From NCBI RefSeq assembly GCF_030013205.1, contig NZ_CP122648.1: a DNA stretch of 64,000 nucleotides, one strand, 5' to 3'. Origin of the DNA: Escherichia coli. GTDB lineage: Bacteria > Pseudomonadota > Gammaproteobacteria > Enterobacterales > Enterobacteriaceae. This document shows, piece by piece, positions 32,901-35,900 of this stretch (within the stretch, counting starts at the first letter, position 1; every line of letters begins with the position of its first letter). Made by a program: the position numbers.

Positions 32901-35900
32901 AATTGCGCCCGGTCTGTACAAAGTTTTAAGTTCGATTGCCGACAAATTGCAGGCTGGCGAACGGGATCTCGATGAAATTATTGCTATTGCCGGGCAAGAA
33001 CTGAATGAAAAAGGCTTCCGCGCCGATGATATTCAGATTCGTGATGCCGACACATTGCTGGAAGTCTCTGAAAACAGCAAACGTGCCGTGATTCTGGTAG
33101 CCGCCTGGCTTGGCGATGCCCGCCTGATCGACAACAAAATAGTCGAGCTGGTGTAATACTTAACTGGCGCTACGGCTGATGGCGCCAGTTATTCATTGCC
33201 ACGTCATCTGTAAGCAATTATTCATATCGTAGACAACTTAGTTAGAGTTAATTAGCTTATCAATCTCTGCAAGAGATAAAGCTGTCACCTCTGCAACGTC
33301 TTCCCGAGACATCCCTTTATTCAGAAAACGCTGGGCGAATTCCTGTCTTACTTCCTGTCTAACTTCCTGATACGCCTCTTGATACGCCTTCTGAAATCCC
33401 TTCTCTTCAAACCACTGCGCCAACGTCTGCCTGGTTTCTCTCCGTGTCTTTATTTCCATATGTTCCCTTAATTATCTGGTCAGTTAACAATAACAATTAT
33501 CTGGCTATAACTGATAATGCAGACAACTTAGTTAATCAGCTTATCAATCTCGGCAAGGGGTAAATTTGCCATCTCTGCAACGTCTTCCCGAGACATTCCT
33601 TTATTCAGAAGACGCAGGGCGAATTCTTGCCTTTCCTCCTGTCTTCCCCTCTCTTCAAACCACTGCGCCAGCGTCATCATAGACTTCCCTCCCGTTTCCC
33701 TGTCTCTCAGCACACCATAAAACAAATCCGCTTGTTCAGTATGACCGCGTTGCAGCATATAGTTTTGCATGGCAACTAACTGACTTCCGCTAGTGTACCC
33801 TTCGTCAATCAGCGTGACCAGTTGCTCCAGCAATAACATTAAGTCGCGCTGGCGAATATGTTTTTGCAGTAGTTCGAGAATCGCAATCCGCCGATGTTGC
33901 ATGATTTCGTCATCCGGTGTGATGGTGATATCCACCAGCGGGAAAGGGTTGTTGTAAACGCGTCGCGCCAGCTCCGGCGAGTAAAACATATCAAACCAGC
34001 AGATTGAGAGCGGATAAGGTGTGGCCTCGCCCTGATAAAACAGAATCGGCACCACCAGCGGCAGCTTATCGTGATCCGCCTCCAAATGCCGATGCATGGC
34101 GGCAATAGAATAACGCATCATGCGAAAGGTCATTTTCTTATCCGGCTTGCTTTGATGTTCAATCACCACATGCAAATAACCGGGATTGCCCTGCATTTGC
34201 ACGGAATAGAGCACGTCAGTGCTGTGTCCTTTCAGGCTTTCTTCAATAAAACTCCCCGACTCAAGATGCAGCGTGTCGAGGTCACACAGTTCGCGTAGTT
34301 CCGCTGGCAAATGGATATCCAGAAAGTCACGAGCCGTTTCCGCATGCATTAAAAATTGTTTAAATACCGCGTCATGCGGTGTGGTACTCGGTGCATCCAT
34401 CTTCCCTGCCTTCCGTGTTGTCTTGCGTGAAGGCAGTATCCAGTCAAGGCGCGCCGTCGTCAGCCGCCTCTTTAGTGTTTACCGAGCAGCGTTCAGAGAA
34501 ATTTCAATTGGTTACAGGCGTTACATGGCACGCTTCGGCACGGTACGCAAACTGCTGATGCAAATGCCGTCAGATGAGTAGACACTAAACAAAAATCGGG
34601 CAATACTGCGTGAGAATTTCCTCAAAGCAGGCATCGCCTGCTTCGTTAACGACAGGGTAGAAAGGTAGAAGTTATGATTCGCACGATGCTGCAGGGCAAA
34701 CTCCACCGCGTGAAAGTGACTCATGCGGACCTGCACTATGAAGGTTCTTGCGCCATTGACCAGGATTTTCTTGACGCAGCTGGTATTCTCGAAAACGAAG
34801 CCATTGATATCTGGAATGTGACCAACGGCAAGCGTTTCTCCACCTATGCCATCGCGGCAGAACGCGGTTCGAGAATTATTTCCGTTAACGGTGCGGCGGC
34901 CCACTGCGCCAGCGTCGGCGATATTGTCATCATCGCCAGCTTCGTTACCATGCCAGATGAAGAAGCTCGCACCTGGCGGCCCAACGTCGCCTATTTTGAA
35001 GGCGACAACGAAATGAAACGTACCGCGAAAGCCATTCCGGTACAGGTTGCCTGATAATCACCCCTGCGGCTGGTTACTCACCAGCCGCGACATCGTCTCG
35101 AGCGAATCCGTTCTTAAGATATAAAGTCGTTTTAGTAACAACGGATTATCCCCCGGTTTTACTTTGCCTTTCATGGTTGTCACCGCCAGGTGAAATCCGG
35201 CTTCTTTTGCTGCCTTCACGGCTTTGTCATTAAATCCGCCAAACGGATACGAAAGATACCAGACATGCGGATTAAATTGCGCCAGAGCGCGTCGTGAACG
35301 TGCAAAATCAAACAGAATATTATGCTCACTACGGCTCAGTAATATGGGTCGGCGATAACCATCCACCCGATGCAAAAAATGGGTATGTGGCTGGAAATCA
35401 AATACATCGCGAATTTCGTTAAGTTCAGAAACGCTCATAAATTGCAGCGATTTTGGGTCCCACTTCTGCGGGTGACGTTTGATGCGCGAGGTAACAATAA
35501 ACGCCGTCGCCTTCATGCCATATTGTTTCAACACAGGATACGCATAGCGGCTCACCGATTTGAGGCCATCATCAAAGGTAATCACCACCGCTCGCGCAGG
35601 GAGATTGATCTTATTCTTCACGTAACCTTCCAGCTGCACCATACTCAGTGTCGTGTATCCCCTGTCGCGCAGCCAGGCCATCTGGTTATTGAAAGCGCGT
35701 ACCGAGGTGGTCGTCGAAGTATGGCGAAAACGGGTGTTTTCTTCGTCGCGCAGAATATGGTGATAGGTTAGCACCGGCAGGCCATTATCGGGTTGGGCAT
35801 CCAGCGCGCTGATATAGGCCAGCCGATCGCCAATACGGATCTGATACCAGGTTTGATTTAACCTGTCTTTCAGTTTATGCAAAATTGGGTAGCGCAAATT

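What the first reader, a model, noticed from the sequence alone, without database searches (positions are those of the whole stretch)
33221..33700. rpnC followed by a degenerate tandem copy of its own 3-prime end, giving a free-standing RpnS-like small ORF
Seen in sequence: the last ~170 bp of rpnC plus ~15 bp past its stop (33511-33690) recur about 290 bp downstream (33221-33440) as a diverged direct repeat. The second copy is an intact 73-aa ORF (33238..33459, minus) whose tail (...LAQWFEE...NKGMSREDVAE...LAEIDKLIN) closely matches the RpnC C-terminus and has its own AAGGGA RBS. It also carries short internal repeats (QEAYQEAYQEVRQEVRQE) absent from rpnC. Established knowledge: Rpn (YhgA-like) nucleases are toxic and are inhibited by small RpnS proteins translated from internal starts within their own 3-prime ends. 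Inference: a separately encoded C-terminal-domain paralog next to the toxin gene could act as a trans-encoded antitoxin or decoy, or be the remnant of a partial gene duplication. As far as I recall, the panC-panD interval in K-12 is about 270 bp shorter, so this arrangement may be strain-specific.
Basis: partly seen in the sequence, partly recalled or inferred. Interest (0 to 1): 0.6.

Follow-up and report, generated by a model that had tools for sequence, protein, structure and literature searches.

The report
Known second RpnS gene, rpnCSs
The small gene after rpnC is a real partial duplicate of the nuclease's tail, but it was already described as rpnCSs in 2023 and occurs in about 29% of complete E. 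coli genomes, so only its function remains open.

Summary
The 3' end of rpnC (33528-34400, minus strand) recurs 290 bp downstream as an intact 73-aa ORF (33238-33459, minus strand) with its own AAGGGA ribosome-binding site. The protein match is 60% identity, E 4e-21. K-12-type strains lack it, and their panD-panC interval is 268 bp shorter.

It is not new. Zhong et al. 2023 (PNAS, PMC10400941, Fig. 2I) describe this arrangement and name it rpnCSs, in parallel with ypaA/rpnESs next to rpnE. It is not strain-specific either. At least 80% of the spacer plus ORF is present in 1554 of 5426 complete E. coli genomes, and the gene also occurs in E. marmotae.

The function of RpnCSs has not been tested. 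One point goes beyond the paper's main text. In 66 loci (39 distinct pairs), the repeat region of the stand-alone copy almost never has the same length as the tail of the neighbouring RpnC. One pair matched; 0.77 matches are expected if the two vary independently, and Spearman rho is 0.006. In this window the copy is three 4-aa repeats longer. The published rule is that only an RpnCS with the same repeat number blocks RpnCL. By that rule the copy may not be the cognate antitoxin of its neighbour.

Novelty: already known. Interest: low to moderate.

The parts
33528..34400 (-). rpnC (yadD), full-length RpnC-L, 290 aa. PD-(D/E)XK Rpn nuclease, the toxin.
   Evidence: ORF list. NCBIfam TIGR01784 265 bits, and RpnA/PRK09857-like E 8e-94. 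RefSeq annotates it as 'Rpn family recombination-promoting nuclease'.
33528..33680 (-). Intragenic rpnCS frame, 50 aa (MMTLAQWFEERGRQEERQEFALRLL...KLIN). The start is inferred by homology to the K-12 internal translation start.
   Evidence: Sequence. Translation of RpnCS from an internal start in K-12 was shown by Zhong et al.. It was not tested for this strain.
33511..33700 (-). Repeat copy 1: the rpnC 3' end plus about 17 nt past the stop codon.
   Evidence: Pairwise alignment.
33621..33650 (-). Variable 4-aa repeat region of the RpnC tail (RGRQEERQEF, 10 aa).
33460..33527 (-). 68-nt spacer with no counterpart in K-12. It supplies the AAGGGA ribosome-binding site (33464-33469). It has no terminator and no sense-strand sigma-70 consensus promoter.
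   Evidence: Its length is fixed at 68 nt in 64 loci, with only 7 sequence variants. Diversity (pi) is 0.008 in its last 45 nt.
33238..33459 (-). rpnCSs: stand-alone RpnS-like ORF, 73 aa.
   Evidence: ORF list. BLASTP to the RpnC tail E 4e-21. Intact in 19 of 19 DNA-sampled complete genomes. This exact protein is indexed in 706 blocks of the assembly collection. RefSeq names for it include 'RpnC/YadD family protein'.
33221..33440 (-). Repeat copy 2, the diverged duplicate of the rpnC 3' end.
33337..33402 (-). Variable repeat region of RpnCSs (KGFQKAYQEAYQEVRQEVRQEF, 22 aa). It includes a 12-nt tandem repeat at 33340-33369.
33162..33190 (.). G+C-rich hairpin between the convergent rpnCSs and panC genes. 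Probably the shared transcription end.
   Evidence: RNA fold. The sequence is also present in K-12.

Best explanation
This is rpnCSs, the already described second, separately encoded copy of the RpnC small C-terminal protein.

Origin: a partial tandem duplication of about 190 bp of the rpnC 3' end. A 68-nt junction supplies a new ribosome-binding site, a new ATG, and an 11-residue N-terminus (MEIKTRRETRQ) in place of the internal MM start.

Expression: there is no terminator between rpnC and the ORF, and a hairpin follows the ORF. It is therefore most likely transcribed on the rpnC and rpnCS messages and translated from its own ribosome-binding site (inferred).

Product: an RpnS-type protein with one long helix that carries the 4-aa repeats, followed by two short helices that resemble a helix-turn-helix motif. 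Proteins of this type pair through the long helix with another RpnS domain, either free or at the end of RpnL. That pairing is how RpnS blocks the nuclease (shown for RpnA and RpnC in K-12, inferred here).

Specificity: pairing depends on repeat number. Here the stand-alone copy is three repeats (12 aa) longer than the resident RpnC tail and uses different repeat residues. I therefore predict that it pairs mainly with itself and is at best a weak inhibitor of the neighbouring RpnC-L. It would act as an independently varying RpnS module that recombination can exchange with, or fuse to, the rpnC tail.
For: - Identity and origin: alignment and BLASTP; the same arrangement is described and named by Zhong et al. 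2023.
- Prevalence: 1554 of 5426 complete genomes; E. marmotae and unclassified Escherichia isolates.
- Intact gene: 19 of 19 DNA-sampled genomes keep the ORF, ATG and ribosome-binding site. The spacer is invariant in length. The spacer's 3' end and the first 57 nt of the ORF have pi of 0.002-0.008, against 0.10 at fourfold-degenerate sites of the rpnC N-domain.
- Co-transcription: no terminator in the spacer, RNA fold z-score -0.68, hairpin after the ORF, no sense-strand promoter consensus.
- Fold: AlphaFold2 mean pLDDT 80, helices at residues 6-47, 52-59 and 63-72. This matches the description of RpnAS as a three-helix protein with a long first helix.
- Specificity: only RpnCS with the same repeat number blocks RpnCL.
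- Mismatch: 39 distinct RpnC/RpnCSs pairs, 1 of equal length against 0.77 expected under independence, Spearman rho 0.006. One RpnCSs allele sits beside RpnC tails of five different lengths.
- Same pattern at the other known locus: K-12 YpaA differs from the RpnE tail by one 4-aa unit.
- Exchange between the copies: RpnCSs alleles in complete genomes carry RpnC-type 3' ends (L019, L020, L003, L014). Loss by fusion was reported by Zhong et al..
Against: - No expression data exist for rpnCSs in any strain. Only YpaA/RpnESs was detected by tagging.
- The repeat-number rule was tested for a single added repeat in K-12 RpnC, not for these alleles.
- pN/pS of the RpnCSs C-terminal 29 codons is 0.54, against 0.31 for the same part of RpnC and 0.044 for the N-domain. 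Constraint is therefore relaxed and the estimate rests on few sites.
- Low diversity of the spacer may reflect recent spread of one haplotype rather than selection.
- Fold searches did not recover the RpnAS crystal structure 7TH0.
- 47 of the 66 loci were retrieved through intact proteins, so only the 19 DNA-sampled loci are unbiased for ORF integrity.
Confidence: 0.8

Rival explanations
1. Redundant cognate antitoxin. RpnCSs binds the tail of the adjacent RpnC-L despite the length difference. It simply raises the antitoxin dose, or lets antitoxin be made independently of rpnC translation.
For: - Close homology to RpnCS and immediate adjacency on the same strand.
- The conserved flanks of the variable region (TLAQWFEE, KGMSREDVAE...L.EIDK) are shared by both copies.
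- A commentary proposes decoupled regulation.
Against: - One extra repeat abolishes inhibition in K-12 RpnC.
- Here the difference is three repeats and the repeat residues differ.
- There is no co-variation of lengths across 39 distinct pairs.
Confidence: 0.25
2. Decaying remnant. The ORF is a by-product of a partial duplication with no function of its own. It stays open only because repeat slippage occurs in 12-nt steps and because gene conversion from the selected rpnC tail keeps repairing it.
For: - pN/pS of 0.54 in the C-terminal part and about 1 in the first 19 codons, at very low diversity.
- PGAP often calls it a pseudogene fragment.
- Most E. coli genomes lack it.
- A few frameshifted variants exist in the protein collection (P0085, P0104, P0089).
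Against: - Intact in 19 of 19 unbiased genomes across at least 12 alleles, and in E. marmotae.
- ATG, ribosome-binding site and spacer length are invariant.
- Single alleles are seen in more than 10,000 index blocks.
- The parallel gene ypaA is translated.
Confidence: 0.15
3. The role is at the DNA level only. The copy is a silent donor cassette for switching the rpnC tail by homologous recombination, comparable to silent pilin cassettes, and its protein product is irrelevant.
For: - Runs of 21 or more identical nucleotides flank the variable region in both copies.
- Mosaic RpnCSs alleles occur in complete genomes.
- RpnC tails with RpnCSs-type variable regions or 3' ends occur in the protein collection (P0049, P0050, P0054).
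- Fusion and loss events were reported by Zhong et al..
Against: - A pure donor would not need a conserved ribosome-binding site, ATG and N-terminus.
- Some mosaic proteins come from short-read contigs, where the two copies can be mis-joined during assembly.
Confidence: 0.15

Closest known systems
rpnCSs of E. coli (Zhong et al. 2023, PNAS 120:e2307382120, Fig. 2I)
   Same: [quoted passage not shown] It derives from rpnC itself, and its 4-aa repeats vary between strains.
   Different: Nothing differs in kind. This window carries one allele, with a 22-aa variable region, next to a short-tailed 290-aa RpnC.
ypaA / rpnESs downstream of rpnE in E. coli K-12
   Same: A stand-alone duplicate of the neighbour's RpnS domain on the same strand, with its own ribosome-binding site. 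It differs from the neighbour's tail by a 4-aa unit: KLEG is present in YpaA and absent from RpnE. RefSeq also annotates it as a pseudogene.
   Different: It arose independently, from rpnE. Its spacer is only 12 nt, against 68 nt here. Its synthesis was shown by SPA tagging, whereas rpnCSs has not been tested.
Intragenic RpnCS, translated from an internal start within rpnC
   Same: The same domain: conserved TLAQWFEE, then 4-aa repeats, then KGMSREDVAE...L.EIDKLIN.
   Different: RpnCS is by construction identical to the RpnC-L tail, so it always matches in repeat number. RpnCSs varies independently and has a different N-terminus and start.
Separately encoded RpnS genes annotated DUF4351 (PF14261) in other species
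   Same: A free-standing RpnS-type gene.
   Different: The 73-aa ORF gives no DUF4351 hit. Sister alleles carry weak PF27070 HTH_Rpn_C hits instead.

Membership tests
RpnSs (stand-alone RpnS) / rpnCSs | Sequence homology to the C-terminal tail of an Rpn (YhgA-like) nuclease | tested here: met
   BLASTP to RpnC residues 235-290: 60% identity, E 4e-21. NCBIfam TIGR01784 profile positions 213-273 of 273, E 7.6e-10, below the whole-protein cut-off as expected for a fragment.
RpnSs (stand-alone RpnS) / rpnCSs | Encoded directly downstream of the rpn gene it derives from, on the same strand | tested here: met
   68 nt after the rpnC stop codon, on the minus strand. The same position is seen in 66 loci.
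RpnSs (stand-alone RpnS) / rpnCSs | Own start codon and ribosome-binding site, with an intact small ORF | tested here: met
   AAGGGA at 33464-33469 and ATG at 33457-33459. The ORF is intact in 19 of 19 DNA-sampled genomes.
RpnSs (stand-alone RpnS) / rpnCSs | Hypervariable 4-aa (12-nt) repeats that begin 8-20 residues after the initiating Met | tested here: met
   The variable region starts at residue 20. A 12-nt tandem repeat lies at 33340-33369. Variable regions of 14-26 aa are seen across alleles.
RpnSs (stand-alone RpnS) / rpnCSs | Three-helix fold with a long first helix, as in RpnAS (PDB 7TH0) | tested here: inconclusive
RpnSs (stand-alone RpnS) / rpnCSs | Pfam DUF4351 (PF14261) annotation | tested here: not met
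   No Pfam-A hit with E of 0.001 or better for the ORF or for allele P0012. Zhong et al. say this annotation applies 'in some species' only. Weak precomputed PF27070 HTH_Rpn_C hits exist on sister alleles.
RpnSs (stand-alone RpnS) / rpnCSs | The protein is synthesised in the cell | not testable with these tools
   Shown only for YpaA/RpnESs and for the intragenic RpnS proteins in K-12.
Rpn toxin-antitoxin pair (cognate antitoxin of the adjacent RpnL) | Same number of 4-aa repeats as the RpnL tail it neutralises | tested here: not met
   In the window the variable regions are 22 aa (RpnCSs) and 10 aa (RpnC). Across loci, 38 of 39 distinct pairs are unequal and rho is 0.006.
Rpn toxin-antitoxin pair (cognate antitoxin of the adjacent RpnL) | Blocks RpnL-dependent growth inhibition, SOS induction or DNA cleavage | not testable with these tools
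   This needs co-expression or biochemical assays.

The most novel reading that the evidence does not exclude
Stand-alone RpnSs copies (rpnCSs here, ypaA in K-12) are as a rule out of register with the tail of the toxin they sit beside. If so, they are not spare cognate antitoxins. They would be a functionally separate RpnS module, for example:
- a homodimeric helix-turn-helix regulator;
- a decoy for a phage factor that targets RpnS;
- an expressed reserve tail that recombination can swap into rpnC to reset toxin-antitoxin specificity in one step.
Probability: 0.35. Interest if true: 0.55.

Novelty: already known. Interest (0 to 1): 0.25.

Why it matters
Rpn nucleases are a recently recognised anti-phage toxin-antitoxin family in which the antitoxin is a gene within the toxin gene. 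A second, separately encoded RpnS copy breaks the obligatory co-evolution of toxin and antitoxin. What it does is therefore a real open question, but one already raised in the literature.

This analysis adds three modest points:
- The copy is common: 29% of complete E. coli genomes carry it, including ATCC 25922, and so does E. marmotae.
- Genome annotation treats it inconsistently: sometimes as a pseudogene, sometimes as a 'transposase', sometimes as an 'RpnC/YadD family protein'.
- Its repeat length varies independently of the neighbour's tail. That gives a concrete, testable prediction that it does not neutralise its neighbour.

Tried and rejected
- Pfam-A scans of the ORF and of allele P0012 gave no significant family and no DUF4351 hit.
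- PDB sequence searches with the ORF and with a 35-sequence profile returned only a designed 'CAP repeat' protein and weak helix-turn-helix matches, not RpnAS 7TH0.
- An Rfam scan of 33000-34750 found nothing at E of 1 or better.
- The promoter scan found no sense-strand sigma-70 consensus in the spacer, only a weak antisense match at 33490-33518. I therefore dropped the idea of a dedicated promoter in favour of read-through from rpnC.
- Spacer RNA folding is no better than shuffled sequence.
- I considered that the near-invariant 120-nt block in rpnC might be kept uniform by exchange with other rpn paralogues. It is single-copy per genome, and K-12-type strains differ from it at 3 of 131 positions, so this was rejected.
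- I considered reading ORF integrity as proof of selection. Slippage in 12-nt steps keeps the reading frame anyway, and 47 of the 66 loci were retrieved through intact proteins, so I did not rely on it.
- I did not run a linked-chain AlphaFold model of the RpnCS/RpnCSs pair. One job without controls would not be informative.

Full report
**What is in the window.** The region is the E. coli panB-panC / rpnC / panD locus. It holds panB (31499-32293 +), panC (32305-33156 +), a 73-aa ORF (33238-33459 -), rpnC (33528-34400 -, 290 aa), panD (34674-35054 +) and yadE. A 1621-bp query across the locus is 100% identical to E. coli K_EC180, a swine isolate from Korea.

**Checking the observation.**
- The rpnC 3' end aligns with the downstream stretch at 80% mean column identity. 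The downstream copy has one 36-nt insertion and one 6-nt insertion, and similarity continues about 19 nt past each stop codon.
- At the protein level the ORF matches RpnC residues 235-290 with 60% identity, E 4e-21.
- The ORF has AAGGGA at 33464-33469 and its ATG at 33457-33459.
- The 36-nt insertion is three extra 12-nt units. Tandem Repeats Finder reports a period-12 array at 33340-33369.
- K-12-type genomes have a 300-aa RpnC, no small ORF, and a match span 268 bp shorter.

Two details need correcting. The 4-aa repeats are not foreign to rpnC: this strain's tail has RQEE-RQEF, and other strains have many RQEV or KGIE units. The arrangement is also common rather than strain-specific. 1554 of 5426 complete E. 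coli genomes hold at least 80% of the spacer plus ORF, including ATCC 25922 and the engineered strain SYNB1934. The small protein also occurs in E. marmotae and in unclassified Escherichia isolates.

**It is already described.** Zhong et al. 2023 (PNAS, PMC10400941) showed that Rpn nucleases (RpnL) are toxins and that small RpnS proteins translated from internal starts block them. [quoted passage not shown] They name it rpnCSs, show that it clusters with RpnCS, and note that it can be lost by deletion or by fusion with the rpn N-terminal part. They add that RpnSs proteins also vary by 4-aa repeats. The accompanying commentary mentions the second RpnS copy as a way to decouple toxin and antitoxin. 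No later paper on rpnCSs turned up in the library. RefSeq already carries proteins named 'RpnC/YadD family protein' for this ORF (WP_000404124.1 and others). In other genomes PGAP calls the same ORF 'hypothetical protein' or a pseudogene fragment ('transposase, incomplete').

**Family tests.**
- Homology is nonetheless secure from BLASTP and from NCBIfam TIGR01784, whose last 61 positions match with E 7.6e-10.
- Sister alleles carry weak precomputed hits to PF27070 HTH_Rpn_C, a family absent from the Pfam library I could scan.
- AlphaFold2 on a 35-sequence alignment gives pLDDT 80, with a long helix (residues 6-47) and two short helices (52-59, 63-72). This fits the published description of RpnAS as a three-helix protein with a long first helix.

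**Expression signals.** The 68-nt spacer has no terminator and folds no better than shuffled sequence (z -0.68). A G+C-rich hairpin (33162-33190) follows the ORF and is shared with the convergent panC gene. No sense-strand sigma-70 consensus was found in the spacer. Read-through from the rpnC promoter and the internal rpnCS promoter is the simplest reading, but it is an inference.

**Conservation.**
- In 19 complete genomes sampled by DNA similarity, the ORF, ATG and ribosome-binding site are intact in all.
- The spacer is 68 nt in all 64 loci measured, with 7 sequence variants.
- Diversity (pi) is 0.008 in the last 45 nt of the spacer and 0.002 in the first 57 nt of the ORF. At fourfold-degenerate sites of the rpnC N-domain in the same strains it is 0.10.
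- This could reflect constraint on the translation-start region, or recent spread of one haplotype. A sliding-window profile shows a second near-invariant block inside rpnC (33721-33840) that E. marmotae shares. K-12-type strains differ from that block at 3 of 131 positions, and the block is single-copy. I therefore do not take low diversity as proof of selection.
- pN/pS is 0.54 for the RpnCSs C-terminal 29 codons, 0.31 for the same part of RpnC, and 0.044 for the RpnC N-domain. Constraint on the small ORF is relaxed but not absent, and the estimate rests on few sites.

**The one point that goes beyond the paper's main text.** Zhong et al. showed that adding one KGIE repeat to RpnCS or to RpnC-L abolishes inhibition unless both proteins carry it.
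- I extracted both variable regions, from WFEE to A-x-R-x-L, in 66 loci. Nineteen loci came from DNA searches and 47 from exact-protein look-ups, which are biased towards intact ORFs but not towards any pairing.
- There are 39 distinct pairs. The RpnC variable region spans 10-50 aa and the RpnCSs region spans 14-26 aa.
- Only one pair is equal in length (26 and 26 aa, with different sequences). A shuffle predicts 0.77 equal pairs under independence, and Spearman rho is 0.006.
- Single RpnCSs alleles sit next to RpnC tails of up to five different lengths. The RpnC tail therefore changes fast while RpnCSs stays put, and nothing keeps the two matched.
- In this window the copy is 12 aa (three repeats) longer than the RpnC tail.
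- The same holds for the other known case: K-12 YpaA equals the RpnE tail plus one unit, KLEG.
- By the published rule, the stand-alone copy is predicted not to be an efficient inhibitor of its neighbour. That prediction is an inference from a single-repeat experiment in K-12.

**Exchange between the copies.** Runs of identical sequence flank the variable region in both copies. Complete genomes carry RpnCSs alleles with RpnC-type 3' ends: L019 and L020 end in ...EMANLPLAEIDKMIN, and L003 and L014 have ELANLPLAEIDK. The protein collection also holds RpnC tails with RpnCSs-type variable regions or ends (P0049, P0050, P0054). Some of those come from short-read contigs where the two copies could be mis-assembled. 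This agrees with the fusion and loss events noted by Zhong et al..

**Verdict.** The element is the known rpnCSs gene, common in E. coli, and its function is still untested. Novelty is 'already known' and interest is low to moderate. The most novel reading not excluded is that stand-alone RpnSs copies are systematically out of register with the adjacent toxin and therefore have a role other than cognate antitoxin. The co-expression assay described under next steps would settle this.

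Noticed in passing
window 33721-33840 (inside rpnC, minus strand): A 120-nt block shows zero nucleotide diversity among 19 two-copy E. coli genomes and zero divergence from E. 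marmotae, although neighbouring parts of rpnC vary (pi 0.02-0.09). It ends 40 nt upstream of the internal RpnCS start, so it may hold the internal promoter and 5' UTR. It is single-copy per genome, and K-12-type strains differ from it at 3 of 131 positions.
   Followed up: partly
window 33397-33492 (3' part of the spacer plus the first 20 codons of the small ORF): This stretch is almost invariant: pi is 0.002-0.008, against 0.10 at fourfold-degenerate sites of the rpnC N-domain, and it is nearly identical in E. marmotae. I could not separate selection on the translation-start region from recent spread of one haplotype.
   Followed up: partly
L069 (E. coli K-12 MG1655 2356904-2358001, rpnE-ypaA): YpaA/RpnESs equals the RpnE tail plus one extra 4-aa unit (KLEG). 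The only stand-alone RpnS copy shown to be expressed is therefore also mismatched with its neighbour. RefSeq lists ypaA as a pseudogene.
   Followed up: partly
L001, L004, L008, L010 versus L003, L013, L015, L017: NCBI annotation of the same small ORF is inconsistent. It is called 'RpnC/YadD family protein', 'hypothetical protein', or a pseudogene fragment labelled 'transposase / incomplete, missing N-terminus'. In those last records the first 10 codons are left out of the annotated feature.
   Followed up: yes
window 33490-33518, plus strand (antisense to rpnC and the small ORF): The only promoter-like match in the spacer is on the opposite strand (ATAACA, 17 nt, GATAAT; 9 of 12 positions). 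If active it would make an RNA antisense to the rpnC 3' end. The number of such matches in the region (3) is close to the shuffle expectation (2.0), so it may be chance.
   Followed up: no
L056 (GCA_023100405.1), L029 and L031 (E. marmotae read-set assemblies): In these loci the long rpnC reading frame is broken while the downstream small ORF is intact. Sequencing errors were not excluded, and two of the assemblies come from old read sets.
   Followed up: no
small ORF residues 33-71: The best PDB sequence match is a protein deposited as 'CAP REPEAT' (8vd6, E 7e-10), whose repeated unit (...EEGKTAEEIAEILGLSVDEIKELIG) resembles the C-terminal helix-turn-helix-like part of RpnS. This is probably just similarity to a generic helix-turn-helix consensus.
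   Followed up: no
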